Shown: positions 10,794 through 28,179, counted from the stretch's first letter. The stretch: 28,179 nucleotides of DNA from a virus (IMGVR_UViG_2778261154_000006:1-28179); one strand, 5' to 3'. Notes: a model not told the origin generated them from the letters alone. Numbers and translations are program-made.

Positions 10794-11069
10794 TTACGCG
10801 CCATCACTGAGCAGAATATCCAGTGCCATTTGCCTTTCGTCTGGTTTAAGGCGCTGGAGCAATGCTTTAACGACACCATCAGTTTGCAGGTCACTGGGTG
10901 AAATCACGCGAAGATCGGAAAGATTGAGCGAAAAACGCATATTACAGTCAGAATTAGTGCAGGTGCAATAAACTACCGCCAGCGTTTTTGCGTCATCCTG
11001 CCATGCAGTTTTGCGTATAGCCGCCCGGCAGTGACACGCCGGACATTCAATTTTCATCACACCCGCCAT
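10794..11069 (-). CDS. Ogr/Delta-family zinc-finger late-gene transcriptional activator (putative)
   Basis: 91-aa ORF. ECPACHC...YCTCTNSDCNMRF gives a C-x2-C...C-x4-C arrangement with spacing like P2 Ogr (CPLCQH...CQNVNCSATF, recalled from memory). Confidence 0.55.
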   Translation of the reverse strand: MAGVMKIECPACHCRAAIRKTAWQDDAKTLAVVYCTCTNSDCNMRFSLNLSDLRVISPSDLQTDGVVKALLQRLKPDERQMALDILLSDGA

Positions 11070-14152: not shown

Positions 14153-15265
14153 ATGGCAAAGCAGAAATACACCACTGACTGGATATGCATAGCAACCGAA
14201 GGCTACGCCATCGACGGTCGCCCCATTACCCGCGAAATGATCCAGCAGGCCGCTGACAACTACAGCACCGCCAGATACACAGCGATGATCTGGCCTAATC
14301 ACCCCGTATACAGTCTTCAGGAGCGAGAATTTACCCCCAATCTGGGGCTTGTTTCCGAGCTGGCGGCTAAAGAAGACGCCGGAAGACTGCGCCTTATGGC
14401 GAAGCTGGAGCCTAACCAGGCGCTGGTTAACCTTAACGATCGCGGCCAGAAGCTCTTTACCTCGTGCGAGTTCTGGGAGAACTATGCCAACACCGGGCAA
14501 ACCTATCTGTACGGGCTGGCAGCAACCGACAGTCCGGCAAGTCTGGGAACCCAGCGCATGGAAATCAAATCAGTGGAAAACAACACACAGGGCTCACGTC
14601 CGCAGTATGCCGCCGCTGGAAATATTGAAATGTTCAGTCTTGGGCGTCTGACGCTGGTCGCTGACACCCCAACAAACCATCATGAGGATAAATCCATGAC
14701 TAAAGAACAGGCGAACCAGTTGCTAGCCCAGATTGTCACTCTGACGGCAAAAATTGACGCGCAGGCGAACACGCAACCACAGGCACAGCAACCCGCACCG
14801 GCGCAGCCCACGGCATCCGCAACAGCAGACACACAGCCAGTAACCGGGGATTTCAGCGCTCACGCTAATCACGTTGCGGAGCTGAGTGAAAAGCTTTCCG
14901 TTGCCACTGACACACTGGCCATCAACCCGAAAGACGACACGGCACGCCAGAACTACACCACCGCCGTGACGGAGCTACAGACCGCACTTAACACCTTTAC
15001 GGTGCAGCCACAGGATGCTGAAACCGCAAAACTCCAGGCACGTATCGCCGCCCGTAATGGCGGACAACAGCCAGCGCCAGCCGCAGCGCAGAATTTCAGT
15101 ACCCGGAAGACGGAAAAAGATGATGAGGCCGACGCCGCCACACTGACAACGCTTACCAGTGCAATCGAAAATCTGAGCCAGCGTTTTTCGGTCATTGAAA
15201 GCCAGCGCACACCGACGCCGGGCGCAGCCCCCGGCGGACAACCCGCACAGTTTGAGCCGCTGTAA
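14153..15265 (+). CDS. O: capsid scaffolding protein, P2 gpO family
   Basis: Segment FWENYANTGQTYLYGLAATDSPASLGTQ matches the conserved gpO core (recalled P2 gpO: NFANTGKCYLVGLAVTDDPASLGTE). Ala/Gln-rich coiled-coil C-terminus. Start placed at MAKQK (14153); the track start is 14093. Confidence 0.8.
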   Translation: MAKQKYTTDWICIATEGYAIDGRPITREMIQQAADNYSTARYTAMIWPNHPVYSLQEREFTPNLGLVSELAAKEDAGRLRLMAKLEPNQALVNLNDRGQKLFTSCEFWENYANTGQTYLYGLAATDSPASLGTQRMEIKSVENNTQGSRPQYAAAGNIEMFSLGRLTLVADTPTNHHEDKSMTKEQANQLLAQIVTLTAKIDAQANTQPQAQQPAPAQPTASATADTQPVTGDFSAHANHVAELSEKLSVATDTLAINPKDDTARQNYTTAVTELQTALNTFTVQPQDAETAKLQARIAARNGGQQPAPAAAQNFSTRKTEKDDEADAATLTTLTSAIENLSQRFSVIESQRTPTPGAAPGGQPAQFEPL

Positions 15266-15312: not shown

Positions 15313-16362
15313 ATGGCCGCACAGATGTTATCACCACAGGCGCAAAAGTTTTTGCGTAATTACGCCATTTCGATGGCAAAAGCCAATGGCGTATTTACAG
15401 CACAACAGTTTTTTACCATCAGCCCACCACGTGAAACCCTGCTACGCGATGCCCTGATTGAGAATGCCGACCCGTTCATGGGCAAGATCACCGTCATGCT
15501 GGTCGAACAGCTTGTCGGCCAGGTAGTCAGTACCGGAATTCCGGGGCTGTATACCGGGCGCAAGAAAGACGGACGCTTCAATAAAGCGCTGGGGAGTGAA
15601 GGCAACGAGTACAAGCTTTACGAAGTGGATTCCGGTTCATTCCTGGACTACACCACCCTGACCAACTGGGCAAACGCAGGCACCGAAAACGAGTTCTATA
15701 ACCGTCTTCAGGCGTTCTTTTACAAGTCAGTCACCAACGACCTGTTACGCGTGGCACTGAACGGTACGCATGCCGCAGATGAAACCAATCCTGATACCTG
15801 CCCGAACGGGGAAGATATTCACCCGGGATGGCATCAGATTGTTAAAGCGCGCACACCAAAACAGATCATTACTGACAAGGTCGTATTGAACCGTACAGGA
15901 ACCGGGGCTGATTTTACGTCTGTTGATGCTATTGCCGCCGATGTAATTAATACCTGCATTCCACCCGAATTCCGTCAACACCCGGATCTGGTTGTACTGG
16001 TATCACAGAACATTATCGCAGCAGATACGGTCAGTATGCTGAACCGCATCGACCGCCCGACAGAAAAAGTCGCCGCCCAGCTTATCAACCGTGAGATCGC
16101 CGGACGCAAGTCATTCAGTCCGCCATTTATGCCGGATAACCGCCTGGTTGTCACCACGCTCTGGAATCTGCATATGTACTTCCAGCGCGGAACACAGCAA
16201 CGCCGTGCTGAATGGATTGATGACCGCAAACGCTTCGAAAACAACTGGCTGCGTATGCAGGGTTGCGCCGTGGAATATGACGCACTCTACGGTTCATTTG
16301 ACAACATTGAACTGGCGGGACTGCCATCACCTGAACATGCGAAACCAAACCAGGTAGCATAA
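15313..16362 (+). CDS. N: major capsid protein, P2 gpN family
   Basis: 349-aa ORF after the scaffold gene. Segment NTCIPPEFRQHPDLVVLVS resembles P2 gpN (NLIEPWYQEDPDLVVIVG, recalled from memory). Gene order O-N-M-L. Confidence 0.85.
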   Translation: MAAQMLSPQAQKFLRNYAISMAKANGVFTAQQFFTISPPRETLLRDALIENADPFMGKITVMLVEQLVGQVVSTGIPGLYTGRKKDGRFNKALGSEGNEYKLYEVDSGSFLDYTTLTNWANAGTENEFYNRLQAFFYKSVTNDLLRVALNGTHAADETNPDTCPNGEDIHPGWHQIVKARTPKQIITDKVVLNRTGTGADFTSVDAIAADVINTCIPPEFRQHPDLVVLVSQNIIAADTVSMLNRIDRPTEKVAAQLINREIAGRKSFSPPFMPDNRLVVTTLWNLHMYFQRGTQQRRAEWIDDRKRFENNWLRMQGCAVEYDALYGSFDNIELAGLPSPEHAKPNQVA

Positions 16363-16373: not shown

Positions 16374-17075
16374 ATGCAGACTCCGGCGCAAAAGTTCAGA
16401 GCCAGACTGGCCGCGCAGCAGGCGATGGAACGCCACGAGGCACTGACCGTACGCGACAGTCTTCATCTGCAACTGGCGCAACTGGAAATCGACTGCAGGG
16501 CTGTGAGCAGTTGCGCCACCAACGCCGATCGTGTGGCATTCAAGCGTGAATCCCTGCTGCCGCGCTGGATGCCGACGATTGAGGCGTGGCTGCAAAGCGG
16601 CGAGGAGTACAAATACATCCCGTTTACCTGGTGCATCGTCTGGCTGTTTGATACCGGCGAAATGGACAAAGCCCTGGAATGGGCCGATATCGCCATCGGG
16701 CAGAATCAACCCATGCCACCACGCTTTGACCGTGATTTGCCAACGTTCGTTGCCGATGAGGTCATGCAGTGGGCACAGATTCAGTTTGATAAAGGCCTTT
16801 CCGTCGAGCCCTATTTCAGCCGCGTGATGAGCCATATCGAAAAAGACTGGACACTGCACGAAGAGATAGTTGCCAGATGGTACAAATTCGCCGGTCTTAA
16901 CCTGTTACGGGACAGCGATGGCAAACCGACAACCCCGGCCGCCATTTACGACGTGGCGAAACTACGTAGCGCCGATGAGTGGATGGCCCGTGCGCACAGC
17001 ACCACCCCCAAAGCAGGTGTTCGCGCCATACGAAACAAAATAGCCGCCCGTCTGCGCGCATTACGGGCGGTATAA
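16374..17075 (+). CDS. M: terminase small/endonuclease subunit, P2 gpM family
   Basis: 233-aa ORF. Segment ESLLPRWMPTIEAWL...WLFDTGEMDKALEWADIAI parallels P2 gpM (RELLPFWLPWV...WRLDTGDIAGALEIARYAL, recalled from memory). Confidence 0.78.
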   Translation: MQTPAQKFRARLAAQQAMERHEALTVRDSLHLQLAQLEIDCRAVSSCATNADRVAFKRESLLPRWMPTIEAWLQSGEEYKYIPFTWCIVWLFDTGEMDKALEWADIAIGQNQPMPPRFDRDLPTFVADEVMQWAQIQFDKGLSVEPYFSRVMSHIEKDWTLHEEIVARWYKFAGLNLLRDSDGKPTTPAAIYDVAKLRSADEWMARAHSTTPKAGVRAIRNKIAARLRALRAV

Positions 17076-17179: not shown

Positions 17180-17650
17180 ATGAACCTGAAACCAGGCTAC
17201 AGCACAGACCAGAACACAGACACTGCTACAGGCATGCTTAAAAATGATGGCTTCTGGCCGGATCTGGTCATGGCTGATTTTCGCAGAAGCCGAACTATCC
17301 CACTGGATATCCCTGCATCACTGGCAGAACAGGCGTTATTGTCTGCCGTCTTTGAGGTGAACACCGCACTGACCGGTGTGAAATCCCGCTACGTAGTGCA
17401 GGGAATAGCGCAGGCGGCGGACGTGGAAGGCCCGCAACTTAACGGCGAAAGCGCCCTTTGCGCACAGTACAAAAAAGCGGTCTTTGCCCGCGCCAAAGCC
17501 GATCTTCTCGGTGAGTTTACGGCGGTGAACACCCGCCACGCCGACAGCAATATCGACAGTAATGACACCCGCGAAACCCTGCTTGCTGAAGCGGCCTTTG
17601 TGCTGCGTGCTATCCAGGGCGCAGGCCGTGTGGGAGTGTACATCTTATGA
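17180..17650 (+). CDS. L: head completion/stabilisation protein, P2 gpL family
   Basis: About 157 aa from the ATG at 17180 (MNLKPGY...). C-terminal RAIQGAGRVGVYIL parallels the P2 gpL C-terminus. The longer track ORF (16979) would overlap M by about 100 bp. Confidence 0.72.
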   Translation: MNLKPGYSTDQNTDTATGMLKNDGFWPDLVMADFRRSRTIPLDIPASLAEQALLSAVFEVNTALTGVKSRYVVQGIAQAADVEGPQLNGESALCAQYKKAVFARAKADLLGEFTAVNTRHADSNIDSNDTRETLLAEAAFVLRAIQGAGRVGVYIL

Positions 17651-18126
17651 GCCAGTTCGACAGCCTTTATGCATATCTGCGGCAGGTGTTTGACATTTCC
17701 GTGTTTGACAATACCGGCTTTGATTCGTGGATGAGTGATATTCGTCTTTTGCCCGCAGAGAAAGACATGGGGCTTGGACAGATAAGAATGGGTATTCGCC
17801 AGTACAACGCCGTGTTCGACTGGCAGCGCTGGCCATGGCGTCAGGTTGACCCTGATTTGCTGTTATGCGCCCTGCTTGTCTGGCGGGACGAACAGGCTAA
17901 TGACTACTACAGCCAGCTTGAGCTTGATGCGCCGGATGTCAACATCGAACCCACGGACGACAACATTGCAGAAGTGACTGTCAGTATGCCGCTCGCTGAC
18001 CCCATCATTCTGATCCCGGACGAGGCCGGTTTTATCATGATGGGCGGCATCCGTTACCGGCTGGATAAGCCAGAGATCTGGGTGGCAGAAAATATCACTG
18101 TATCCACCATCAGGGCAGGGAAATAA
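17647..18126 (+). CDS. putative virion/head-tail joining protein
   Basis: 159-aa ORF with ATGA overlap to L. Position between the head and tail genes. No confident motif. Confidence 0.4.
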   Translation: MSQFDSLYAYLRQVFDISVFDNTGFDSWMSDIRLLPAEKDMGLGQIRMGIRQYNAVFDWQRWPWRQVDPDLLLCALLVWRDEQANDYYSQLELDAPDVNIEPTDDNIAEVTVSMPLADPIILIPDEAGFIMMGGIRYRLDKPEIWVAENITVSTIRAGK

Positions 18127-18129
18127 ACA

Positions 18130-18858
18130 ATGGACATCTCCCTGCACGGCGAACTTAACCGGACACAGCTTAAGCAGCTGCAGACAATGCTGGCCAACGG
18201 TGAGCTCCCCCCGGCAAAACAACAGCGTCTGCTGCAGCGTATCGCAAAACGCGGCGTTATTCCGGCCGCAAAGCGCCATGTTCGCGAACAAAAGAATGTT
18301 GATGGCAGCAGTTTTGCAGAACGCCGCTATGGCAACAGACCGCTGCTGAAGGGGCTCCCTAAATTTCTGAAAGTGCACGACATGCCATCAGCGAAATCGG
18401 TGCGTATATACGCAGCAGGCAGGAGCTATCGCCAGCCCCACAACCACAGGGAAATCAGCGTGGGTGCAGTGGGATATATCCAGAGCCATGGCGTTACGTT
18501 CACAGTGAACGCATCGCAGCTGAAAACCGACGCGATGGAAAAAGCCAGCAAGGAACCCTGCTCCCGCCGTCAGGCGATAAAGCTGCGCAAGCTGGGCTAT
18601 ACGGTGAGCGGCAAAAAAAGGGGGACGCGCCGCAAACCATCAACGGCAGATATCCGGACGTCGCTCACGAAAGGGCAGGCAGGCGTGATTATCCGCAGCA
18701 TGGAAGGCATACCATCCAAAAGCTGCTGGACGATAACCATCCCACCCCGTCAGTTCCTTGGTGTCAGTAACGAGGAATTTGCACGGATACTGTCCCGCCA
18801 GTTGCAGGGCATCAATTATGGCTGGCAGACAAAGCCGCAGGACATTAAGAGGAAATAA
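18130..18858 (+). CDS. putative virion morphogenesis / tail completion protein
   Basis: 242-aa ORF in the structural operon, very basic C-terminal half. Assignment by position only. Confidence 0.35.
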   Translation: MDISLHGELNRTQLKQLQTMLANGELPPAKQQRLLQRIAKRGVIPAAKRHVREQKNVDGSSFAERRYGNRPLLKGLPKFLKVHDMPSAKSVRIYAAGRSYRQPHNHREISVGAVGYIQSHGVTFTVNASQLKTDAMEKASKEPCSRRQAIKLRKLGYTVSGKKRGTRRKPSTADIRTSLTKGQAGVIIRSMEGIPSKSCWTITIPPRQFLGVSNEEFARILSRQLQGINYGWQTKPQDIKRK

Positions 18859-18861
18859 CCC

Positions 18862-19986
18862 ATGACGTTTCCACAGGTCACAATTAATCAGCTCAACACC
18901 CACAGCGGAAGCAAGCGTGGGATCGCCTGCACCCTGCTGATGGTGGGCGAGCATACAAAAGCCATTCTCCCGACACCGGTTACAGCACAAACCGATCTTG
19001 ACTCGCTGTTAGGAACAAAGGATTCATTGTTACGCAGTAACGTGCAGGCGTTTCTGGATAATGCCGGACAAAATGCCATGATCTGGCTGGCAACCGTGCA
19101 GACACCCCAGCCTTCTGGTCAGACCCGAACGTGGGCTGATGTGGTTATGGATGCACAGGCCACCCTCTCGGTGGAAGGCGTTGTCGTTGTTCGCGCTAAC
19201 GCCTCAGGTAACGATATCGACAAAGCGCAGCAACTGCGCAGCGAACTCAATAACACCTTCCAGCGCTGGACATGGTTTATCCTGGCTGTTCGCGGCTGCG
19301 GAACAGGCGAGAAGTGGTCAGAATACGTCACCGTCATGACCGGACTACAGAAAGGCATTGCCGCTTACGCGGTGCAGCTTACCCCGATGCTGTTCGGCAA
19401 TGAACCGGGGATACTGGCCGGTCGCCTTTGCAATCCATCAGTGACGATTGCTGATTCCCCCGCCCGTGTTGCAACCGGCGCACTGGTCAATATGGGCCGC
19501 AACGATAAACCGCAGGACAGCGACAAGCGCGAACTGGACATTGCCACCATCAGGGCCCTGAACAGGGCGCGTTTCAGCGTACCAACGTGGTATCCCGACT
19601 ACGAAGGTTACTACTGGGCCGACGGCGTCACGCTCGATGTGGACGGTGGCGATTATCAGGCTATCGAATATCTGCGCGTTGCCGATGAAATGGCCCGTCA
19701 GGTGCGTTTGCTGGCTATCCCAAAAATCGCCAATCGCTCACTGAACTCCACCCCGGCAAGTGTGGCCGCGCACCAACAGCTTTTCGCGAAGCCCATGCGC
19801 GACGGCGCAAAGAGCCTGAAAATCAACGGCACGGTATTCCCTGGCCTTTGCATGTCACCGCACGACGGCGACGTAAAAATCTCATGGCCGGAAAAAGACA
19901 AAGTGCAGATTGCGATCGTGGTTCGCCCGTATAACTGCCCGAAAGAAATCACCATCAGCATCATGCTGGACGAAAGCGGAGAGTAA
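18862..19986 (+). CDS. putative tail sheath protein
   Basis: 374-aa ORF directly upstream of a 153-aa ORF, a sheath/tube-like size pairing. Not recognisably similar to P2 FI from memory, so the assignment is positional. Confidence 0.45.
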   Translation: MTFPQVTINQLNTHSGSKRGIACTLLMVGEHTKAILPTPVTAQTDLDSLLGTKDSLLRSNVQAFLDNAGQNAMIWLATVQTPQPSGQTRTWADVVMDAQATLSVEGVVVVRANASGNDIDKAQQLRSELNNTFQRWTWFILAVRGCGTGEKWSEYVTVMTGLQKGIAAYAVQLTPMLFGNEPGILAGRLCNPSVTIADSPARVATGALVNMGRNDKPQDSDKRELDIATIRALNRARFSVPTWYPDYEGYYWADGVTLDVDGGDYQAIEYLRVADEMARQVRLLAIPKIANRSLNSTPASVAAHQQLFAKPMRDGAKSLKINGTVFPGLCMSPHDGDVKISWPEKDKVQIAIVVRPYNCPKEITISIMLDESGE

Positions 19987-19989
19987 CCC

Positions 19990-20451
19990 ATGAACACCGA
20001 ACGCATCAGTGGTATGAGCTTTGACACGTCATTTAATGGCCGCATCGTTCACGTAAAAACCGCCACCCTTGATATTACCGACAACACCAAAGCCATTCAG
20101 GAGCGCGGTGTACCTGATGGCTGGGTACGCGGCGACGTGGAAGCCGGCGGTGAAATTGAACTGGATACCGTTAACTTCCAGCTTCTTGGTGAAGCCGCGC
20201 GTGAAGCAGGGAGCTGGCGCGACATCGAAGAAGCCGACTTTCTCTTCTTTGCCCGTGCAGCAAAGACAGAACTCAGGGTGGAAGCCTTTGGTTGCAAACT
20301 GCTGATCAGTAACCTGCTGAATATCGACAGCAAGGGCGGTGACAACATAAGCCATAAAATCAAATTTATGGTGACTTCGCCGGAGTTCGTCAAAATTGAC
20401 GGTGTTCCGGTTCTCAGCGCCACCGATGTTCGGGACATCATGAACCAATAG
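19990..20451 (+). CDS. putative tail tube protein
   Basis: 153-aa ORF following the putative sheath gene. Positional assignment. Confidence 0.45.
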   Translation: MNTERISGMSFDTSFNGRIVHVKTATLDITDNTKAIQERGVPDGWVRGDVEAGGEIELDTVNFQLLGEAAREAGSWRDIEEADFLFFARAAKTELRVEAFGCKLLISNLLNIDSKGGDNISHKIKFMVTSPEFVKIDGVPVLSATDVRDIMNQ

Positions 20452-20459
20452 GAAAGACA

Positions 20460-20798
20460 ATGCAAAGCACCCCCCACAACTGGAGCGACTGGCTGGCGAT
20501 AATCAAAGACTGGTTACGTGGTGATATCCCTCTTGACAGTCTGCTGATGACTGCCGTCATTGCAGCACTCAGAGTGTTTTACACAGGCCGCAGCTGGCGT
20601 CGTCTTTTGCTTGAGGTGCCGTTGTGTTGCCTGCTGGCCGTGGCGGCATTCACCCTCATTAAGCCGGTCCCCGTCGCATGGCTGACCGAAGACTGGCGCG
20701 TCGGTATCGGTGCCGCAATTGGCCTTATTGGTGTTGAACATATCCGGGCACTGGGTGTGTTCATCACAAAGAAATTTGCAGGGAAAAGTGACGAATGA
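20460..20798 (+). CDS. holin (putative, multi-pass membrane protein)
   Basis: 112-aa ORF with hydrophobic segments (LLMTAVIAALRVF, LCCLLAVAAFTLI, IGAAIGLIGV) and a charged C-terminus. Overlaps the lysozyme gene start. Confidence 0.6.
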   Translation: MQSTPHNWSDWLAIIKDWLRGDIPLDSLLMTAVIAALRVFYTGRSWRRLLLEVPLCCLLAVAAFTLIKPVPVAWLTEDWRVGIGAAIGLIGVEHIRALGVFITKKFAGKSDE

Positions 20799-21238
20799 AA
20801 ATTTCAGACAACGGGCTGGCCGCACTTAAACGCGAAGAAAACTGCAAACTGACCGCTTACCCCGATCCGCGCGGCGTATGGACCATTGGTACAGGTCACA
20901 CAGGAAAGGTTGATGGTGTCGCAGTTCACAAAGGCATGACCATCACCCAGGACACCGCCGACAGACTGCTACGCGACGATCTGTCATGGGTGGAGCACTG
21001 CATCGCTGAACGGGTAACAGTTCCGCTGAACCAGAGTCAGTATGACGCGTTGTGTAGCCTGATTTTCAATATCGGCGCTGACGCTTTTATCGGTTCCACC
21101 GTTCGCCGTCAGTTAAACGCCGGCAACTACACCGCCGCCGCTGATGCTTTCCTGAAATGGAGCCGCGCAGGCAGTAACCCGACAATTCTGGCCCCGCGTC
21201 GCGGACGTGAGCGGGCAATGTTTCTGGGACAGAGGTAA
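20795..21238 (+). CDS. phage lysozyme / endolysin (GH24, lambda R / P21 R-like)
   Basis: GVWTIGTGHTGK matches the GH24 endolysin core (compare P21 R GVWTVCHGHTGK, recalled from memory). N-terminal E-x8-T context. Flanked by holin and spanin genes. Confidence 0.85.
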   Translation: MKISDNGLAALKREENCKLTAYPDPRGVWTIGTGHTGKVDGVAVHKGMTITQDTADRLLRDDLSWVEHCIAERVTVPLNQSQYDALCSLIFNIGADAFIGSTVRRQLNAGNYTAAADAFLKWSRAGSNPTILAPRRGRERAMFLGQR

Positions 21239-21244
21239 GGCCAC

Positions 21245-21709
21245 ATGAAACGCGCAACACTCGCCTTTATCGTCTTCATGGTCGTCGCCGTGGCCGTGCT
21301 CGGCTTCACAGCTGACTACTGGCACAACCGCTTCACCAGGGCAGAAAAAGCCCGCCAGAAAGCCGTAAATCTTGCCGACACCCGACAGCAGACCATTGAC
21401 GACATGACACTGCGTCAGCGCCAGAACGCCGCGCTTGATGCGAAATACACAAAGGAGCTCGCCAATGCAAAAGCTGAATCCGAAAAGTTACGCGCCGATC
21501 TTGCTTCTGGCCGTCGCCGGTTGCAGCTCCACGCCGTCTGTATGCCCGCCGCCACGCGTGATACCACCGCCACCGGCTCAACTGATGCAACCGCCGCCCG
21601 ACTTACTCCGGACGCTGAACGGGATTATCAGCATCTCAGAGCCGAAGCGAAAGCCGTCGTTGCACAAGTGAACGGCCTGCAACAGTACATTACTGAACAA
21701 TGTCATTAA
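21245..21709 (+). CDS. Rz: i-spanin (Rz-like)
   Basis: N-terminal transmembrane segment LAFIVFMVVAVAVLGF, then a charged coiled-coil-like periplasmic domain. Contains an embedded out-of-frame lipoprotein ORF. Confidence 0.8.
   Translation: MKRATLAFIVFMVVAVAVLGFTADYWHNRFTRAEKARQKAVNLADTRQQTIDDMTLRQRQNAALDAKYTKELANAKAESEKLRADLASGRRRLQLHAVCMPAATRDTTATGSTDATAARLTPDAERDYQHLRAEAKAVVAQVNGLQQYITEQCH
21465..21671 (+). CDS. Rz1: o-spanin (Rz1-like outer-membrane lipoprotein), embedded in the +1 frame of Rz
   Basis: AAGGAG SD 8 nt upstream of the ATG at 21465. Signal peptide plus lipobox LAVAGC. Proline-rich mature peptide (PPPRVIPPPPAQLMQPPP). Confidence 0.75.
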   Translation: MQKLNPKSYAPILLLAVAGCSSTPSVCPPPRVIPPPPAQLMQPPPDLLRTLNGIISISEPKRKPSLHK

Positions 21710-21712
21710 AAA

Positions 21713-22012
21713 ATGGCACCACTCACCGGGGAAAATAGCATGAAAGACGAAAATACCACCATCATCACCCTGACCGTCGCAGGCGAGGACATTCGCTTCG
21801 CCCCGACCGAAGCTGTCTACAACAAGTTCGTGAATGAAATAACGATGGATAACAAGGTGGCGCCAGCCAAAAACTACCTGATGCGCTGTGTACACCCGGA
21901 AGACAAAGAGAAACTGGAGAAGCTCATTCACCGCCCGGGAGCAGCCCTTCAGATGGCAGCAAAACTCAATGAAGATTTTGCCGTCAATCTGGATATCACC
22001 GTAAAAAAATAA
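21713..22012 (+). CDS. tail assembly chaperone (zero-frame product; G/E-equivalent)
   Basis: 99-aa ORF immediately upstream of the tape-measure gene. Ends in ...GTA AAA AAA TAA, i.e. a slippery A7 run directly before the stop. Confidence 0.6.
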   Translation: MAPLTGENSMKDENTTIITLTVAGEDIRFAPTEAVYNKFVNEITMDNKVAPAKNYLMRCVHPEDKEKLEKLIHRPGAALQMAAKLNEDFAVNLDITVKK

Positions 22013-22200
22013 AGGCGGCACTGTCCGGCATTGAGCGCAACGGCTACGCGCAATATCTGGTATTACGCCGCCACTGGCTACCGGATGGCGAGGACACACC
22101 GGAAGACATTGCCGCTGCGGTCTGGCTGGACAACCGTTATTTCGAAAACATGAGTATTGCCGTCAATAACGGCATTGCGAGAGCATTTAAAGGTGGGTAA
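21713..22200 (+). CDS. tail assembly chaperone, predicted -1 programmed-frameshift fusion product (GT/E+E'-equivalent), slip at the A7 run 22003-22009
   Basis: After a -1 shift on A AAA AAA, the frame is open for about 62 more codons (KKIKAALSGIERNGYAQYLVLRRHWLPDGEDTPEDIAAAVWLDNRYFENMSIAVNNGIARAFKGG). It stops at TAA 22198-22200, overlapping the tape-measure ATG at 22200. No ATG-initiated ORF covers this 188-bp stretch. Confidence 0.5.
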
Positions 22201-24281
22201 TGGCTGCTGAACTTGATTTTACGCTAAGTCTGGTTGATAAGCTGACGAGACCCTTAAAACAGGCGCAATCGGCTGTGACCGGATTTGCTGACAAGGCAAC
22301 AGCCGACTTTAAACGTCTCGGTTTTGGTGTGGCCGGGTTATGGGGGGCTGCTCAGGGAATAAAAGGACTGGTCAACCCCGCCCGCGACATGGAAGCCGCG
22401 CTGGCCGAAGTCAGCTCGCTGGATGTGGCAAATAAAACACTCGATCAGCTGCGTAAAACTTCACAGACGTTTGCCATTAACTACGGCGAAAGCGCCAGCA
22501 ATTTCGTCCGCAGCGCCTACGATATCCAGTCCGCCATCGCAGGACTTCAGGGTGACGAACTGCCAAAATTTACTGAAGCATCCGCCATTCTCGCCAAAGC
22601 CACCAAATCAGACACGGCCACCATTACTAACTATATGGGCACCATGTACGGTGTTTTTAAAAATACCGCAGAGAAGATGGGGCGCACGCAGTGGGTTGAA
22701 CAAATTGCCGGGCAGACCGCAACCGCCGTTCAGGTGTTCAAAACTACCGGTAATGAAATGTCTGCTGCCTTTACTGCGCTGGGTGCCAACGCGCAGGCAA
22801 TGAAGGTATCTGCCGCTGAACAGTTCGCCGTACTGGGACAGCTCCAGTCCACCATGTCAGGCAGCGAGGCGGGAACCAAATATAAATCATTCCTGGCGGG
22901 GATTGGGAATGCGCAAAAAGTGCTGGGGCTGAACTTTACCAACCGGGACGGCAGTGCCAGAAGCATTACCGGTATCATCGACCTGATTAAAGGAAAGTTT
23001 GGCGATCTGTCAAAAGTGGCAGATGCAGACCTGCTGAAAAAAGCCTTTGGCAGCGATGAAGCGGTGTCCATGATTAAACTACTGACCGGAGATGTTGACG
23101 GGCTGAAACGGAACATCAATACATTAGGTAACATCAAAGGCATGGATAAAGCCATCGAAATGGCGAAAAAGATGGTTGACCCGTGGGATCAGGTTAATTC
23201 TTTACTGGAGCAGGTTCGCGTCAGCATTGGTCTGCGGCTCGATCCCGTCTTTGCCCCGTTCCTGCAAAAAATCATCACCGGCGGGAAAGCCTTCATGAAA
23301 TGGCTGGATACGTTCCCCAATATTGCCCGCTGGCTGGGATATATCACTGCAATGACCCTCGCCTTTGCCGCAGCAGGGGCGCTTGCCAGTATCACGATGG
23401 GGGCCTTCGGCTTTATCATGACCGGGCTCAGCGGAATTGCTGGCGTGCTGAAAGGCGCATGGAAAGGACTAATCTTCACCCTGGATTTATTACGCCCCTC
23501 CCTGCTTTCAACCCGTCTTGGCCTGATGGGGCTATGGATTCAGGAAAAAGCCGTCTGGGTGTGGTCAAAGCTGGTCGCTCTTTGGGCAGGGATCTGTAAA
23601 GCAGCGATCGTAGCCTGGAACGTAGTGTTACGTGCGGGCGCGGTTGCAATGCGCCTGTGGGGCGTGGCGACGGCATTCGCAGGCGGTGCGCTTCAACTCC
23701 TGATAAGTCCCATAACCCTGATTATTCTCGCCATTGCCGCACTTGCCGTAGGGATCTGTCTGGCTATCAAATACTGGGACAGTATTAAAGCCGCCATCAT
23801 GGACACGGAAGCTTTCAGTGCCCTGCTAAAAGTCATTAACGCTGTGGTGGGCTGGTTTGATGATGCATGGAACAGCATTAAAGCCGGATGGGACAATCTG
23901 ACGAACTGGTTTAAAAATTTCTCGCTGGCCGACACATTCGGCAATATCACAGCTGGAATTGGCAAGCTCTTTGACGGCATATGGGATTCCATTAAGAGCG
24001 CCTTTACCGGGACATGGAACTGGATAGCAGAGAAGCTCAACAAAATCCCCGGTGTCAATATCAGCACCGCACAACAGACCGTCGCACCGACACCCGCCCC
24101 GGAGCTTATCACTGGCAACCGTAGCGCCGCCATCCAGGGCGGGCCGGTAAGTCACCAGATAAGCAACAACCGGGGCGACAAAGTCACCAATAACAACGTT
24201 AAGCAGGATATCACACTGCACGTTGACACCCTGGCGACACCGGGACAACTGGCGGAATACAGCGAACTGGCAGCGGGGTGA
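22200..24281 (+). CDS. tail tape measure protein
   Basis: 693-aa ORF directly after the chaperone/frameshift pair. Ala/Gly-rich with a central hydrophobic block (ITAMTLAFAAAGALASITMGAFGFIMTGLSGIAG...) and repeated W/G-containing segments. Confidence 0.85.
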   Translation: MAAELDFTLSLVDKLTRPLKQAQSAVTGFADKATADFKRLGFGVAGLWGAAQGIKGLVNPARDMEAALAEVSSLDVANKTLDQLRKTSQTFAINYGESASNFVRSAYDIQSAIAGLQGDELPKFTEASAILAKATKSDTATITNYMGTMYGVFKNTAEKMGRTQWVEQIAGQTATAVQVFKTTGNEMSAAFTALGANAQAMKVSAAEQFAVLGQLQSTMSGSEAGTKYKSFLAGIGNAQKVLGLNFTNRDGSARSITGIIDLIKGKFGDLSKVADADLLKKAFGSDEAVSMIKLLTGDVDGLKRNINTLGNIKGMDKAIEMAKKMVDPWDQVNSLLEQVRVSIGLRLDPVFAPFLQKIITGGKAFMKWLDTFPNIARWLGYITAMTLAFAAAGALASITMGAFGFIMTGLSGIAGVLKGAWKGLIFTLDLLRPSLLSTRLGLMGLWIQEKAVWVWSKLVALWAGICKAAIVAWNVVLRAGAVAMRLWGVATAFAGGALQLLISPITLIILAIAALAVGICLAIKYWDSIKAAIMDTEAFSALLKVINAVVGWFDDAWNSIKAGWDNLTNWFKNFSLADTFGNITAGIGKLFDGIWDSIKSAFTGTWNWIAEKLNKIPGVNISTAQQTVAPTPAPELITGNRSAAIQGGPVSHQISNNRGDKVTNNNVKQDITLHVDTLATPGQLAEYSELAAG

Positions 24282-24284
24282 CAA

Positions 24285-24623
24285 ATGAGTACGAAATCAC
24301 TTTATATCGACCTGCTCATTACTGACGGCGATCTTACGTTCAACTCCGCCAGTGAGCCGGTCTTGTGTGACAACCGCCAGAGTATTGCTCAGGACATGAT
24401 TCACGCCCTGATTGAAAGTGGTCTGCCCTGTCGTCTGATTGCGGAGAACAGCCCCACACTCAGGGCCGACCTGTTCACGCAAATGGTGATACTCCTGGAG
24501 GAGGATGAACGCCTCATTCCCGGCTCCGTATTTATTGACGAAGAGCAACGCGGCCAGCTCCTTGTTACCGCCGATACCTACGATTTTGGTCAGTTAAGCC
24601 AGGGGATGCGCTATGCAGAATAA
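24285..24623 (+). CDS. putative tail/baseplate protein
   Basis: 112-aa ORF between the tape-measure and baseplate J-like genes. Positional assignment. Confidence 0.4.
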   Translation: MSTKSLYIDLLITDGDLTFNSASEPVLCDNRQSIAQDMIHALIESGLPCRLIAENSPTLRADLFTQMVILLEEDERLIPGSVFIDEEQRGQLLVTADTYDFGQLSQGMRYAE

Positions 24624-25791
24624 TATCGACTTCAAAAACATACTGCGCGAAAGCGGAATGCCGGTTGATGAACAGACCGTACGTGACACCCTGCAACAGG
24701 TGGCAGATGATGAAAAACTCATCACCAATACGTCGCGCATGTCGCCATTCTGGCGGCTGATTCAGTTGCTGGTTATCACGCCGTATGTGTGGATTGTTGA
24801 CACACTGGCTGACAATGTACTGCATAATCTGTTTCTGATGACTGCCAGAGGGCCGTTCGTTGACCTGTTCGCTGCCGCCCTCAAGCTTACCCGCAAGGAA
24901 GCCACGCGTGCGATCGGTAAAATCATTTTTACCAAAAACAACCAGAATGACAGTGTGACCGTACCGGCTGGCACACTGATTCAGACGGAGCGTATTAACG
25001 GTGTGATTTATTCCATGGCGACCCGCGAGCAGGTAATTATCCCCGCAGGCACGCAAAGCACCCTTATTGATGTGATCGCCACCGACAGCGGTACGGCATT
25101 CAATCTGGCACCAGGCTATTACCAGATACTCCCCAAAGCGATTAACGGAATTGCGTCTGTACGTAACGGTGATAACTGGCTGACCATACCGGGCGCAAAC
25201 CGCGAAAGTGACGACGAACTGAAAGATCGTTGCCGTAACCAGTTTAACCTTGCCGGCAGTTATCACACTGACGCAGTTTACCGCAGCCTGATAGCTGCAC
25301 AGGCCGGACTGACCATCGATCGCATCTTCTTTTTACATGACGCCCCGCGAGGACCTGGTACAACTAATGCCTACCTGCTGCTGGATACCGGGGTTATTTC
25401 GCAACCCTGGGTTGACAGCGTGAATGATTACATCATGGCACAGGGACATCACGGCCACGGCGATGATATGCGTTGTTTTGCCATGCCGGAAACCCGCCAC
25501 GATCTGGCGGTTACGGTGTATGTTGAAAACCTTTCCAATATCAGCAAAAACGATATCGACGCCCTGAAATCAGGCACTGAAAACCTGATTCGTTGTGCAT
25601 TCCGTGAAAACAGTAACTACGACGTAACCCGCACATGGCCATACAGTCGCTTTTCATTCTCGCAACTGGGACGCGAACTGCATGACACCTTTCCTCTGGT
25701 GGGATCCGTGACGTTTTCCCTTGAGGATATCATCAGCGATCTGAACGTACCCCGCCTGAACACACTGACAGTTGAGGTGAAGAATGCCTGA
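24613..25791 (+). CDS. baseplate protein, J/gp47-like (putative)
   Basis: 392-aa ORF upstream of a gpI-like gene and the tail fibre. Size and position fit the baseplate J family. Confidence 0.5.
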   Translation: MQNNIDFKNILRESGMPVDEQTVRDTLQQVADDEKLITNTSRMSPFWRLIQLLVITPYVWIVDTLADNVLHNLFLMTARGPFVDLFAAALKLTRKEATRAIGKIIFTKNNQNDSVTVPAGTLIQTERINGVIYSMATREQVIIPAGTQSTLIDVIATDSGTAFNLAPGYYQILPKAINGIASVRNGDNWLTIPGANRESDDELKDRCRNQFNLAGSYHTDAVYRSLIAAQAGLTIDRIFFLHDAPRGPGTTNAYLLLDTGVISQPWVDSVNDYIMAQGHHGHGDDMRCFAMPETRHDLAVTVYVENLSNISKNDIDALKSGTENLIRCAFRENSNYDVTRTWPYSRFSFSQLGRELHDTFPLVGSVTFSLEDIISDLNVPRLNTLTVEVKNA

Positions 25792-26356
25792 TAAATCACC
25801 GGACATTAAGTTGCCGTCATGGCTGAATCGCGGCGATGTGCTCCGCCTGAAAAACACCTTTATCCGTTTCTGGGGAAAGGTGCACGACTGGGTAACATGG
25901 CCACTGAGCCAGACCGACCCACTGACATGTGCGGAATCCATTCTGAACCTGACAGCCTGGCAATATGATATAGCCCGTTTTGACGGCGAACCGCTCACGC
26001 TGTACAGAAAGCGTGTCAAATATGCCTTTATCAACGCACAGGACGCGGGCAGCGTGGCGGGATTCAGGGCAATTTTTGAACGACTGGGGATCGGTTATGT
26101 GGAGATTCAGGAGCGCCAGCCAGGCACAGACTGGGATGTTGTTCTTTTGCGCCTGACAGACAACCAGATCTCAGAAAATACAACATTACTCAATCAGATA
26201 ATTCGCCAGTACGGTCGCACCTGCCGCCGTTACCATCTTCAGATAATCACATCCACGGATTGTGTTATCGGACACGGATACTGGCATGGCAGCTATCACT
26301 ATTTTTATGCACCGGAGATGAAAAATGACCCAGAGCGCTATCACTTCAGCATTTGA
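25784..26356 (+). CDS. tail (baseplate) protein, P2 gpI-like
   Basis: Segment ILNLTAWQYDIARFDGEPLTLYRKRVKYAFINAQDAGSVAGFRAIFERLG parallels P2 gpI (LLPWLAWAFSVDRWDEKWPEATKRAVIRDAYFIHCHKGTIGAIRRVVEPLG, recalled from memory). Immediately upstream of the fibre gene. Confidence 0.55.
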   Translation: MPDKSPDIKLPSWLNRGDVLRLKNTFIRFWGKVHDWVTWPLSQTDPLTCAESILNLTAWQYDIARFDGEPLTLYRKRVKYAFINAQDAGSVAGFRAIFERLGIGYVEIQERQPGTDWDVVLLRLTDNQISENTTLLNQIIRQYGRTCRRYHLQIITSTDCVIGHGYWHGSYHYFYAPEMKNDPERYHFSI

Positions 26357-28163
26357 GCGCCTGAAAGCGCAGGAAGCCGCAGGCGGCAACCGTATCATCA
26401 TTGATCAGTTTGTATTTGCAAATATCCCGGATCTGAACATTGCCGACACGCCGTCTGAAAACGAACCATTGCCCCCCGATGCACAGATAGTTCACCGCCA
26501 GAACGTTGATCGCAACGGAATGGTAAATGAGAACACCGTCGCCTACTCCGTTACCCTGCCGGAGTCCACGGGTGATTTTACTTTTAACTGGCTGGGTCTG
26601 GTAAGCAGCACCACAAATACACTTTGTATGGTGGTATATCTTCACCCTCAGAAAAAAATAAAAACCGCAGACGGCAAACAGGGTAATACCCTGATTTATT
26701 CTGAAATTATGGAATACGCCGGAGCCAGCGCCGCAACCGGCATCACCACGCCAGTAAGCACCTGGCAGATTGATTTTACGGCACGGCTTCACGGCATGGA
26801 CGAGGCCACCCGCAAAGCGGCGCTGGATATCTACGGGCCTGGCCTGTTCTTTAATAACGCCTTTAAACTCACCGCTCAGGCTACCGGGCAGGCGACCTTC
26901 GCGCCGGGTATTGCCTATCTGCGCGGATTACGTGTGGAGCTGGATGAACAAGGCACACTGACATACGCCACCGGAATTTCACAAACTGTTTATGTTGACG
27001 CGGCATTAACCGGTACCCTGACCGGGGAAAATAAAGCCATATTCAGCCTGACGAGTCAGAAAACAGCCGACTATACCGACAGTTCAGGATTTGCCCATTA
27101 TGTCGAACCCATCGCCACAATATCAGACAGTGGCGAGATCACCGATATACGAAAAACCCGCAAACCATTAAATGACCGCCTTGATGGCGAATACCTGACC
27201 CGTAACGGGAACCTGAAAGAAATTGCTGACAAAGGTGAACAGGCCCAGTCTGATGCCAGAAAGCATATGGGCCTCGGCGACAGCGCCACCCTTAATGTTG
27301 GCACCGCGCAGGACACTGTAGCCGCAGGTGACGACATCCGCATCACAGGAGCGCTGCAAAAAAATCAGAACGGAGCAGATATTCCCGATAAACCGCTGTT
27401 TATCCAGAACGTTGGTTTACAGGAAACGGTAAACAAGGCTGATAACGCTGTCCAAAAGACAGGCGATACCTTGTCCGGTGGACTTACTTTTGAAAACGAC
27501 TCAACCCTTGCCTGGATTCGAAATACTGACTGGGCAAAGATTGGTTTTAAAAATAATGCCGACAGCGATACTGATTCATACATGTGGTTTGAAACAGGTG
27601 ACAACGGCAATGAGTATTTCAAATGGAGACACCGCCTCGCTGGCGGCCGGGTTAAAGACCTGATGAATCTCAAATGGGATACACTAAATATTCTGGTTAA
27701 TGCCGTCATTAATGGTTGTCTTGGAATTGGTACGACGAATGCGTTAGGTGGAAGTTCAATCGTTTTAGGAGATAACGATACCGGGTTTAAACAAAATGGC
27801 GATGGTCTGCTTGATGTTTATGCGAATGGACAGCGTGTATTTCGTTTCCAGAATGGCAGTATCCAGAGTAATAAAGCTGTAAACGTTACAGGACGGGTAA
27901 CACCGTCAGACTACGGAAACTTTGATGCCCGTTACCAGCAGCGAAATGGTGGCGTGCAGGATGTGCGGTATGGTTATGAAATGTATTACAACCCTGGCAG
28001 CAACACCGTTTCATGGACGTTTCGCTCACCTTCGGGACACGGGCTGTCAGGGATATCGATATCGGATACCGGCCGTAACTCAGCGGATAACGTCAACGGT
28101 GTGTATTACCGACCGCTGCAAAAACTGATTAATGGCACCTGGTATAACGTAGCGAGTATTTAA
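26325..28163 (+). CDS. H: tail fibre protein with P2 gpH-like C-terminal half
   Basis: 612-aa ORF. Residues about 365-612 (LQETVNKADNAVQKTGDTLSGGLTFENDSTLAWIRNTDWAKIGFKNNADSDTDSYMWFETGDNGNEYFKWR ... YRPLQKLINGTWYNVASI) closely match the C-terminal region of P2 gpH as recalled. The N-terminal about 360 aa is different. Confidence 0.85.
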   Translation: MTQSAITSAFERLKAQEAAGGNRIIIDQFVFANIPDLNIADTPSENEPLPPDAQIVHRQNVDRNGMVNENTVAYSVTLPESTGDFTFNWLGLVSSTTNTLCMVVYLHPQKKIKTADGKQGNTLIYSEIMEYAGASAATGITTPVSTWQIDFTARLHGMDEATRKAALDIYGPGLFFNNAFKLTAQATGQATFAPGIAYLRGLRVELDEQGTLTYATGISQTVYVDAALTGTLTGENKAIFSLTSQKTADYTDSSGFAHYVEPIATISDSGEITDIRKTRKPLNDRLDGEYLTRNGNLKEIADKGEQAQSDARKHMGLGDSATLNVGTAQDTVAAGDDIRITGALQKNQNGADIPDKPLFIQNVGLQETVNKADNAVQKTGDTLSGGLTFENDSTLAWIRNTDWAKIGFKNNADSDTDSYMWFETGDNGNEYFKWRHRLAGGRVKDLMNLKWDTLNILVNAVINGCLGIGTTNALGGSSIVLGDNDTGFKQNGDGLLDVYANGQRVFRFQNGSIQSNKAVNVTGRVTPSDYGNFDARYQQRNGGVQDVRYGYEMYYNPGSNTVSWTFRSPSGHGLSGISISDTGRNSADNVNGVYYRPLQKLINGTWYNVASI

Positions 28164-28179
28164 CAATGTTGCATTTAAA

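What the first reader, a model, noticed from the sequence alone, without database searches (positions are those of the whole stretch)
17647..28163. Mosaic virion module: P2-type packaging/head genes joined to a differently organised tail cluster with the lysis cassette embedded between tube and chaperone genes
Q, P, O, N, M and L are P2-like in order and sequence motifs. Downstream, the order is putative sheath, tube, holin, lysozyme, Rz/Rz1, chaperone (frameshift), tape measure, baseplate, fibre. This differs from P2, where lysis genes follow X and the sheath/tube genes lie after the fibre genes. It indicates modular recombination between phage lineages.
Basis: partly seen in the sequence, partly recalled or inferred. 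Interest (0 to 1): 0.45.

Follow-up and report, generated by a model that had tools for sequence, protein, structure and literature searches.

The report
Ordinary HP1-type P2-family prophage late region
The stretch is the normal virion-and-lysis gene block of an HP1-type member of the P2 phage family living as a prophage in E. coli; its gene order has been known since phage HP1 was sequenced in 1996, so it is ordinary rather than a newly formed mosaic.

Summary
Family searches confirm portal, terminase, scaffold, capsid, small terminase and head completion (11120-17650). They also confirm gpR-like, gpS-like, DUF2586 'sheath', tube, holin, lysozyme, Rz/Rz1, a chaperone with a -1 frameshift, tape measure, DUF2590, J-like, I-like and fibre (17647-28163).

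This order is the standard one of the HP1 group of Peduoviridae. Annotated records show it gene for gene in HP1, K139, phiO18P, ESSI2_ev239 and vB_YenM_324, which belong to five ICTV genera.

The head genes are also closer to those phages (44-63% amino-acid identity) than to P2 (25-39%). There is therefore no recent head/tail junction. The deep split between P2-type and HP1-type tail modules is already published.

Three parts are mosaic:
- The lysis cassette sits in the conserved slot, but its lysozyme and Rz are closest to those of lambdoid phages.
- The fibre C-terminus is shared with P2 H and with Mu-like fibres.
- The immunity region, outside the finding, is 96% identical to a P2-subgroup Xuanwuvirus.

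The tube fold was verified. The sheath assignment could not be confirmed independently. Near-identical prophages occur in 6 of 5426 complete E. coli genomes. Interest is low.

The parts
10794..11069 (-). Ogr/Delta-like zinc-finger protein, the presumed late-gene activator
   Evidence: Pfam PF04606 at E 5.4e-5, 23.5 bits, below the gathering score of 26.3. PGAP names the 100%-identical protein 'Ogr/Delta-like zinc finger protein'. A 'transcriptional regulator' sits in the same position in ev239, YenM324, phiO18P and K139.
11120..12175 (-). Portal protein (gpQ-like)
   Evidence: PF04860 and phrog_68 at E 6.6e-121. 63% identical to ev239 and YenM324, 34% to P2. End coordinate follows the PGAP start in VL40.
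12172..13995 (-). Large terminase (gpP-like)
   Evidence: Terminase_6N, Terminase_6C and Terminase_5. 56% identical to ev239, 39% to P2. PGAP start taken.
14153..15265 (+). Scaffold/protease (gpO-like)
   Evidence: PF05929 Phage_GPO, E 3.2e-43.
15313..16362 (+). Major capsid protein (gpN-like)
   Evidence: PF05125 Phage_cap_P2, E 9e-73. 51% identical to ev239, 25% to P2.
16374..17075 (+). Small terminase (gpM-like)
   Evidence: PF05944, E 1e-35.
17180..17650 (+). Head completion protein / adaptor (gpL-like)
   Evidence: PF05926 Phage_GPL, E 1.2e-34. PGAP start taken.
17647..18126 (+). Tail terminator (gpR-like)
   Evidence: PF06891, E 3.7e-13, and phrog_65.
18130..18858 (+). Tail completion protein / Neck1 (gpS-like)
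   Evidence: phrog_26, E 9.2e-19. The Pfam Phage_tail_S match (E 0.0051) is below threshold.
18862..19986 (+). HP1-type tail sheath candidate (DUF2586)
   Evidence: PF10758, E 9.5e-114, and phrog_907 'tail sheath', E 5.9e-125. 50-53% identical to HP1 orf23 and to the ev239 sheath. The fold was not verified.
19990..20451 (+). Tail tube protein (HP1 Orf24 family)
20460..20798 (+). Holin (lambda S family)
   Evidence: PF05106, E 1.4e-15, and phrog_126. No homologue in ev239, YenM324, K139 or HP1.
20795..21238 (+). Endolysin, T4/P22-type lysozyme
   Evidence: PF00959, E 1.8e-39. 66% amino-acid identity to ES18 gp19-type lysozymes.
21245..21709 (+). Rz (inner-membrane spanin)
   Evidence: PF03245, E 8.3e-33. 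About 67% nucleotide identity to lambdoid Rz genes.
21465..21671 (+). Rz1 (outer-membrane lipoprotein spanin), embedded in Rz in the +1 frame
   Evidence: 68 aa, lipobox LAVAGC, proline-rich, with AAGGAG 8 nt upstream of the ATG.
21713..22012 (+). Tail assembly chaperone, short form
   Evidence: PF10963 Phage_TAC_10, E 4.5e-31.
22003..22200 (+). Slippery heptamer A_AAA_AAA (22003-22009) and the -1-frame extension of the chaperone, 63 codons ending at TAA 22198-22200
   Evidence: The extension matches Pfam DUF6890 at E 6e-24. Homologous extensions follow A_AAA_AAC in HP1, ev239, YenM324, phiO18P and K139.
22200..24281 (+). Tape measure protein
   Evidence: PF10145 and phrog_28, E 3.7e-90.
24285..24623 (+). 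DUF2590 small baseplate-module protein
   Evidence: PF10761, E 1.3e-38. 58-62% identical to the proteins at the same position in HP1, ev239 and YenM324.
24613..25791 (+). Baseplate J-like wedge protein
   Evidence: PF04865, E 7.1e-27, and phrog_6.
25784..26356 (+). gpI-like baseplate/tail protein
   Evidence: PF09684 Tail_P2_I and phrog_1228, E 1.6e-79.
26325..28163 (+). Tail fibre with a mosaic C-terminal part
   Evidence: PF12571 at the N-terminus. Bases 27368-27860 are 84-89% identical in nucleotide sequence to P2 H, SfMu and other fibres. Bases 27461-28179 are 99% identical to fibre genes of other E. coli prophages.

Best explanation
Bases 11120-28163 are the late (virion plus lysis) region of a temperate myovirus of the HP1 subgroup of Peduoviridae, integrated as a prophage in Escherichia/Shigella. 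Close relatives are common in Salmonella.

Inferred mode of action:
- An Ogr/Delta-type activator switches on divergent late transcription: leftward for portal and large terminase, rightward for everything else.
- The rightward block is effectively one translationally packed unit. From L to the fibre, every intergenic gap is 8 nt or less, except the 187-nt chaperone-to-tape-measure gap, which is coding in the -1 frame.
- In order, the rightward block encodes scaffold/protease, capsid, small terminase, head completion, tail terminator and completion proteins, sheath, tube, a holin-lysozyme-Rz/Rz1 lysis cassette, the chaperone pair, tape measure, baseplate (DUF2590, J, I) and fibre.
- The chaperone pair consists of a short form and a -1 frameshifted long form made at A_AAA_AAA.
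- Because the lysis genes would be co-transcribed with the tail genes, the timing of lysis would be set by holin triggering, not by separate transcription.

This order is inherited and characteristic of the HP1 subgroup. It was not created by a recent recombination in this element.

Within the conserved scaffold, two cassettes have been exchanged horizontally:
- The lysis genes. The lysozyme and Rz are closest to those of lambdoid phages, and the holin belongs to the lambda S family.
- The receptor-binding C-terminus of the fibre.

Shown here: gene identities, gene order, synteny with five genera, the similarity profile, the tube fold and the frameshift signal. Inferred: transcription as one operon, actual frameshifting, the sheath function and particle morphology.
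For: The gene order is identical in HP1, ESSI2_ev239, vB_YenM_324, phiO18P and K139. It contrasts with P2.

Per-gene tblastn shows that head and tail genes share the same nearest relatives:
- Against ev239 and YenM324: Q 63%, P 56%, N 47-51%, sheath 51-53%, tube 48-52%, J 58-62%.
- Against P2: head genes only 25-39%, and no hit for R, S, sheath, tube, chaperone, tape measure, DUF2590 or J.

The sheath homologue occurs in 76 phage records from Vibrio, Escherichia, Pasteurella, Haemophilus, Aeromonas and other hosts.

Tube fold. Rz1 and the frameshift. Gene packing.

Lysis cassette:
- No hit in ev239, YenM324 or K139.
- Lysozyme 66% identical to ES18 gp19.
- Rz about 67% nucleotide identity to lambdoid Rz.

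Fibre mosaic.

Prophage context: the late region is 99.4-99.7% identical to prophages in six complete E. coli genomes. In VL40 it lies between yecA and a tRNA cluster, with the remaining tail genes (fibre assembly, baseplate, Vgr-like spike) downstream.

Literature:
- PMC10612066 defines HP1 and P2 subgroups by their tail proteins. It notes that lysis genes are usually a module inserted among the tail genes.
Against: No isolated phage in the 50,697-record collection matches the late region at nucleotide level, apart from the fibre. The best sheath identity there is 53%, so membership of a named genus cannot be claimed.

The sheath identity was not confirmed independently:
- The AF2 model failed, at pLDDT 33.
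- A 48-sequence DUF2586 profile finds no solved sheath.
- hhalign against a P2 FI profile gives a probability of 0.2%. The FI control profile, by contrast, finds pyocin, AFP, PVC and T4 sheaths.

No P2-type Ogr site (TGT-N12-ACA) lies in the P-O intergenic region, and the Ogr Pfam match is below threshold. The activation step is therefore inferred.

Whether the prophage is inducible is unknown. In strain VL40 the integrase is split by IS1.
Confidence: 0.9

Rival explanations
1. One reading: this element is a recent, noteworthy mosaic. A P2-type packaging/head module recombined with a tail-plus-lysis cluster from a different phage lineage, creating a junction at about 17650.
For: Head genes carry P2-family Pfam domains. 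R, S, sheath, tube, chaperone, tape measure, DUF2590 and J have no tblastn hit in P2. The order differs from P2. The literature proposes that one subgroup acquired an old paralogous tail module when the P2 and HP1 clades separated (PMC10612066).
Against: The L|R junction and the whole downstream order are conserved in five genera. The head genes themselves are nearest to HP1-group phages, not to P2, and the similarity profile shows no step at 17650. Any exchange is therefore ancient and ancestral to the whole subgroup, and it is already published.
Confidence: 0.04
2. The block is a decaying, non-functional prophage remnant or a domesticated tailocin-like element, not a working virion module.
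For: In E. coli VL40 the adjacent integrase is interrupted by IS1. No isolated phage of this lineage is present in the phage collection. The window ends before the spike and baseplate genes, so completeness cannot be judged from the window alone.
Against: All 19 late ORFs are intact and tightly coupled. The frameshift signal and the embedded Rz1 are preserved. Head and packaging genes are present, which argues against a tailocin. The region is 99.4-99.7% conserved in six genomes, and the sheath is 86-91% conserved in very many Salmonella genomes. The missing downstream genes are present in VL40.
Confidence: 0.1
3. The 374-aa DUF2586 protein is not a contractile sheath but another abundant tail or virion protein, so the 'sheath, tube' reading of the order is wrong.
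For: There is no significant sequence or profile similarity to any solved sheath or to P2 FI. Pfam still calls the family a DUF. My structure model was unusable.
Against: - PHROG 907 and the RefSeq records label it tail sheath.
- It sits immediately upstream of a fold-verified tube and downstream of the terminator and completion genes, the canonical myovirus order.
- In one search, PMC2771037 classes the HP1-like phages among the Myoviridae and describes contracted sheaths for the Peduovirinae virions. No other sheath candidate appears among the tail genes of the five relatives or in this window.
- A divergent family member hits PF04984 Phage_sheath_1 weakly but over the full length of the profile (E 0.015).
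- That member aligns collinearly with FI residues 112-367 (E 0.02). This matches the HHpred mapping reported in PMC10612066.
Confidence: 0.04

Closest known systems
Haemophilus phage HP1 / HP2 (Hpunavirus, Peduoviridae), late region orf15-orf31
   Same: Gene-for-gene identical order: Q, P (leftward); O, N, M, L; orf21 (terminator); orf22; orf23 (sheath); orf24 (tube); hol; lys; Rz-like; orf26 (chaperone); orf27 (tape measure); orf28 (DUF2590); orf29 (J); orf30 (I); orf31 (fibre). The window's tube protein belongs to the Pfam family named after HP1 Orf24. The gap of about 188 nt between chaperone and tape measure is the same, with a conserved -1 extension.
   Different: Identity is only 25-58% at the amino-acid level. 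The host and G+C content differ. The holin and Rz are not homologous, and the lysozyme is only 28% identical. The fibre also differs.
Escherichia phage ESSI2_ev239 / Cronobacter phage ESSI-2 (Evevirus) and Yersinia phage vB_YenM_324 (Tresduoquattuorvirus)
   Same: These are the closest catalogued phages. The order is identical, and identity is 35-63% across head, neck, tail and baseplate genes. They are enterobacterial HP1-subgroup phages.
   Different: Too distant for the same genus: there is no megablast match outside the fibre. Their lysis cassettes are unrelated to the window's, with no tblastn hit for holin, lysozyme or Rz. ev239 has a primase-type replication gene, whereas the window has a gpA-type one.
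Enterobacteria phage P2 (Peduovirus)
   Same: Divergent Q,P / O,N,M,L capsid cluster with the same Pfam families. gpR, gpS, J, I and H-type fibre families are present, as are a -1 frameshifted chaperone upstream of the tape measure and an Ogr-type regulator.
   Different: In P2, X and the lysis genes follow L, R and S come after the lysis genes, baseplate and fibre genes precede FI/FII, and there are four late operons. The window's sheath, tube, chaperone, tape measure, DUF2590 and J have no tblastn-detectable similarity to P2, and the head genes are only 25-39% identical.
Lambdoid S-R-Rz/Rz1 lysis cassettes (P22/ES18 gp13-gp19-gp15 type)
   Same: The window's lysis cassette has a lambda-S-family holin and a soluble T4/P22-type lysozyme that is 66% identical to ES18 gp19. 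Its Rz carries an embedded Rz1 in the +1 frame and is about 67% identical in nucleotide sequence to lambdoid Rz genes.
   Different: Here the cassette is embedded between tube and chaperone genes inside a myovirus tail operon, not downstream of a Q-antiterminated late promoter.

Membership tests
HP1 subgroup of Peduoviridae ('HP1-like viruses') | P2-type capsid/packaging cluster: Q and P leftward; O, N, M and L rightward | tested here: met
   Pfam Phage_portal, Terminase_5/6N/6C, Phage_GPO, Phage_cap_P2, Phage_term_smal and Phage_GPL, in that order and orientation.
HP1 subgroup of Peduoviridae ('HP1-like viruses') | HP1-type tail proteins (sheath DUF2586, tube HP1_Orf24, DUF2590, J) that match HP1-group phages better than P2. 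This is the criterion of PMC10612066, Table 2. | tested here: met
   PF10758, PF10772 and PF10761. 46-62% identical to HP1, ev239, YenM324 and phiO18P, with no hit in P2.
HP1 subgroup of Peduoviridae ('HP1-like viruses') | Gene order L - R - S - sheath - tube - lysis cassette - chaperone - tape measure - DUF2590 - J - I - fibre | tested here: met
   Identical in HP1, ev239, YenM324, phiO18P and K139. phiO18P and K139 have one or two extra small genes in the lysis slot.
HP1 subgroup of Peduoviridae ('HP1-like viruses') | Head genes also cluster with the HP1 subgroup, following the portal-tree split in PMC10612066 | tested here: met
   Portal is 63% identical to ev239 and YenM324 and 50-52% to HP1, K139 and phiO18P, against 34% to P2. 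Capsid is 47-51% against 25%. This rests on pairwise identity only; no tree was built.
HP1 subgroup of Peduoviridae ('HP1-like viruses') | Programmed -1 frameshift in the tail chaperone gene upstream of the tape measure | tested here: inconclusive
   The signal and a conserved -1 ORF are present (A_AAA_AAA; DUF6890 extension at E 6e-24; conserved in five relatives). Frameshifting itself cannot be shown computationally.
HP1 subgroup of Peduoviridae ('HP1-like viruses') | Myovirus morphology with a contractile tail | not testable with these tools
   Needs electron microscopy of induced particles. The tube fold is verified; the sheath fold is not.
Any catalogued genus of Peduoviridae (ICTV genus level, about 70% nucleotide identity over the genome; the threshold is from my own knowledge) | Genome-wide nucleotide similarity to a member phage | tested here: not met
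   Megablast of 11000-28179 against 50,697 phage records matches only about 3% of the query, in the fibre. The early region matches a Xuanwuvirus over about 20%.
P2 subgroup (Peduovirus-type late-gene organisation) | X and the lysis genes directly after L; R and S after lysis; V-W-J-I-H-G before FI-FII-E/E'-T-U-D | tested here: not met
   P2 annotation compared with the window's order.
Contractile-tail sheath superfamily (Phage_sheath_1 / P2 FI / T4 gp18) | Detectable homology or a shared fold with known sheaths | tested here: inconclusive
   Profile searches were negative, although the FI positive control worked. Weak hints: P0390 against PF04984 at E 0.015 and against the FI profile at E 0.02. 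The AF2 model failed. HHpred homology is reported in PMC10612066.
Tail tube / Hcp fold | Tube-protein fold, as in solved tail tubes and Hcp | tested here: met

The most novel reading that the evidence does not exclude
The prophage may represent an uncatalogued genus-level lineage of HP1-subgroup Peduoviridae. It is rare in E. coli and widespread in Salmonella. Its immunity region is 96% identical to that of a P2-subgroup Xuanwuvirus that, like the VL40 copy of this prophage, lies next to yecA. If that reflects recent exchange, the two deeply divergent late (virion) modules of the family are interchangeable in nature under one immunity and early control system. This lineage would then be a natural test case for how Ogr-type late activation is kept compatible across subgroups.
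Probability: 0.45. Interest if true: 0.3.

Novelty: new member of a known kind. Interest (0 to 1): 0.1.

Why it matters
It matters little beyond correct annotation.

The practical gains are modest:
- The E. coli/Shigella/Salmonella proteins labelled 'DUF2586', 'DUF2597/phage protein', 'DUF2590' and 'DUF6890' can be read as sheath candidate, tube, baseplate-module protein and the frameshifted part of the tail chaperone.
- The element illustrates which parts of a conserved virion operon are actually exchanged: the lysis cassette, the fibre tip and the immunity region.

Tried and rejected
- **Nucleotide search of the late region against phages.** Only the fibre matched, so no close catalogued phage exists.
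- **Sequence and profile searches of sheath and tube against the PDB.** Nothing significant was found.
- **hhalign of DUF2586 profiles against P2 FI.** I tried a single FI sequence, a 9-sequence FI profile, global and greedy modes, and a 62-sequence DUF2586 alignment. Probability stayed at or below 0.4%. The tube profile against FII was likewise negative.
- **AF2 model of the sheath.** It failed at pLDDT 33, because the 120 hits listed by the search for homologous proteins were all 86-100% identical.
- **Pfam scan of 48 DUF2586 members at E up to 1.** No sheath family appeared. Only one divergent member gave a sub-threshold PF04984 hit.
- **Consensus promoter and terminator scan.** Counts were no higher than in shuffled sequence.
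- **Search for P2-type Ogr sites, TGT-N12-ACA.** None lies in the P-O intergenic region.
- **Original papers on K139 and HP1.** Neither is held in the library.
- **First local script runs.** One mixed all loci in a single file and one hung on hhalign. Both were redone.

Full report
**What is there.**
The window carries most of a P2-family prophage.

The early region (about 1-11069) holds:
- helix-turn-helix repressors;
- a Dam methylase;
- a gpA-type replication protein of 838 aa (PF05840, E 3.8e-105);
- an Ogr/Delta-like zinc-finger gene.

The late region starts with portal and large terminase on the minus strand (11120-13995). It continues rightward with scaffold, capsid, small terminase and head completion (14153-17650). 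All of these have P2-family Pfam domains and strong PHROG matches.

The finding's coordinates (17647-28163) cover, in order:
- a gpR-like tail terminator;
- a gpS-like completion protein;
- a 374-aa DUF2586 protein (phrog_907 'tail sheath', E 5.9e-125);
- a 153-aa protein of Pfam family 'Bacteriophage HP1 Orf24' (E 2e-54);
- a lambda-S-family holin;
- a PF00959 lysozyme;
- Rz;
- a Phage_TAC_10 chaperone;
- the tape measure;
- DUF2590;
- Baseplate_J;
- a gpI-like protein;
- a tail-collar fibre.

**Details checked.**
Rz1 is a 68-aa lipoprotein ORF at 21465-21671. It lies in the +1 frame inside Rz, has the lipobox LAVAGC and a proline-rich body, and has a Shine-Dalgarno sequence upstream.

The chaperone gene ends ...GTA AAA AAA TAA. 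The heptamer A_AAA_AAA at 22003-22009 is a classical -1 slippery site. The -1 frame stays open for 63 codons and stops at TAA 22198-22200, overlapping the tape-measure ATG at 22200.

That extension matches Pfam DUF6890 (E 6e-24). Homologous extensions follow A_AAA_AAC directly after the chaperone stop in HP1, ev239, YenM324, phiO18P and K139 (E 4e-14 to 2e-24). Frameshifting is thus well supported by conservation, although it has not been shown experimentally.

From L to the fibre, every intergenic gap is 8 nt or less, except this 187-nt 'gap'. The lysis genes therefore sit inside one packed tail operon.

**Tube and sheath.**
- the diffocin, pyocin and PVC tubes and many phage tubes.

The sheath could not be verified in the same way. 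The accessible homologues were all 86-100% identical, and the model failed at pLDDT 33.

A 48-sequence DUF2586 profile finds no solved sheath. It does not align with a P2 FI profile. The FI profile used as a control finds the pyocin R2 sheath at 7e-165 and T4 gp18 at about 1e-6.

Only weak bridges exist. One divergent DUF2586 member hits PF04984 Phage_sheath_1 at E 0.015 over nearly the whole profile. That member aligns collinearly with FI residues 112-367 at E 0.02. This is consistent with the HHpred mapping published for an HP1-group sheath (ACA1 86-310 = P2 101-334; PMC10612066).

The sheath assignment also rests on three other lines of evidence:
- the PHROG and RefSeq labels;
- the position next to a verified tube;
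- the lack of any other candidate among the annotated genes.

I accept it at about 95%.

**Is the order unusual?**
It is not. The sheath homologue occurs in 76 phage records. The annotated genomes of five phages show exactly the window's order, including the lysis cassette between tube and chaperone:
- HP1 (Hpunavirus);
- ESSI2_ev239 (Evevirus);
- vB_YenM_324 (Tresduoquattuorvirus);
- phiO18P (Bielevirus);
- K139 (Longwoodvirus).

The literature already describes this:
- Lavigne et al. 2009 (PMC2771037) split the P2-related phages into P2-like and HP1-like viruses. [quoted passage not shown]
- A 2023 analysis (PMC10612066) defines HP1 and P2 subgroups by their tail proteins. It proposes that one clade acquired a much older paralogous tail module. 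It also remarks that lysis genes are usually a module inserted among the tail genes.

**Is there a head/tail mosaic junction in this element?**
Per-gene tblastn says no. The identities are:

| Gene | ev239 / YenM324 | P2 |
|---|---|---|
| Portal | 63% | 34% |
| Large terminase | 56% | 39% |
| Capsid | 47-51% | 25% |
| Small terminase | 44-45% | 28% |

The same two phages remain the best matches through R, S, sheath, tube, chaperone, DUF2590, J and I (35-62%). The head genes are 'P2-type' only in the family-wide sense.

**What is mosaic.**
(a) The lysis cassette. Holin, lysozyme and Rz have no tblastn hit in ev239, YenM324 or K139. The lysozyme is 66% identical to the ES18 gp19-type lysozymes of lambdoid phages. 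Rz is about 67% identical in nucleotide sequence to lambdoid Rz genes. The slot is conserved and its content has been swapped.

(b) The fibre. Bases 27368-27860 are 84-89% identical to P2 H, SfMu and other fibres. Bases 27461-28179 are 99% identical to fibre genes of other E. coli prophages.

(c) The immunity region, outside the finding. Bases 78-2725 are 96% identical to Escherichia phage 520873. That phage is a Xuanwuvirus with P2-type gene order, and its record begins with yecA. The shared proteins are 95-100% identical, whereas the late proteins are only 25-34% identical. The sharp, recent junction is between the early and late regions, not between head and tail.

**Context.**
The late region is 99.4-99.7% identical to prophages in 6 of 5426 complete E. 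coli genomes. In strain VL40 it lies between yecA and a tRNA-Leu/Cys/Gly cluster. The fibre-assembly, baseplate and Vgr-like spike genes that the window lacks lie downstream there, and an IS1 is inserted in the integrase.

Sheath homologues of 86-91% identity are very common in Salmonella enterica. No catalogued phage matches the late region at nucleotide level beyond the fibre. The lineage is therefore an undescribed member of a known group.

**Verdict.**
The interpretation as a notable mosaic is not: this is the ordinary late region of an HP1-subgroup Peduoviridae prophage. Interest is 0.1, and the element is a new member of a known kind.

Noticed in passing
window 78-2725 (and patches to about 7038): The immunity/cox region is 96% identical in nucleotide sequence to Escherichia phage 520873, a Xuanwuvirus with P2-subgroup gene order whose record begins with yecA (the VL40 copy of this prophage also lies next to yecA). 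Proteins there are 95-100% identical, whereas the late proteins are only 25-34% identical. This indicates a recent early/late module exchange across the two Peduoviridae subgroups.
   Followed up: partly
window 27368-28179: The fibre C-terminus is mosaic. Bases 27368-27860 are 84-89% identical to P2 H, SfMu (Mu-like) and Yersinia phage fibres. Bases 27461-28179 are 99% identical to fibre and assembly genes of unrelated E. coli prophages. The otherwise 99.7%-identical VL40 copy has a fibre about 168 nt longer.
   Followed up: partly
window 22108-22200; L003 25109-25201: RefSeq/PGAP annotates a free-standing 30-aa 'DUF6890 family protein' here. It is the tail end of the -1 frameshift extension of the tail assembly chaperone, so Pfam DUF6890 is the frameshifted C-terminal part of the HP1-type chaperone.
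   Followed up: yes
window 20460-21709: The lysis cassette sits in the HP1-group slot but is not homologous to the cassettes of the nearest relatives. The lysozyme is 66% identical to ES18/P22-type gp19. Rz/Rz1 is lambdoid-like, at about 67% nucleotide identity.
   Followed up: partly
window 18862-19986: The DUF2586 family, labelled sheath in HP1-group phages, shows no profile-level similarity to solved sheaths or to P2 FI. An FI profile finds those sheaths easily. Only sub-threshold bridges exist.
   Followed up: partly
window 3701-5979: The early-region cargo includes a ParE-like toxin domain protein (3701-3958), a D12-class Dam methyltransferase (4709-5668) and DUF4406 (5668-5979). None has a counterpart in the VL40 copy of the prophage.
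   Followed up: no
window 13996-14152: The divergent P-O intergenic region has no P2-type Ogr site (TGT-N12-ACA). The Ogr/Delta match of the 91-aa protein at 10794-11069 is below Pfam's threshold. The late-activation signal of this lineage is undefined.
   Followed up: partly
L003 2950-4728 (E. coli VL40, outside the window): In VL40 the prophage integrase is split by an IS1A insertion, so at least that copy is probably unable to excise.
   Followed up: no
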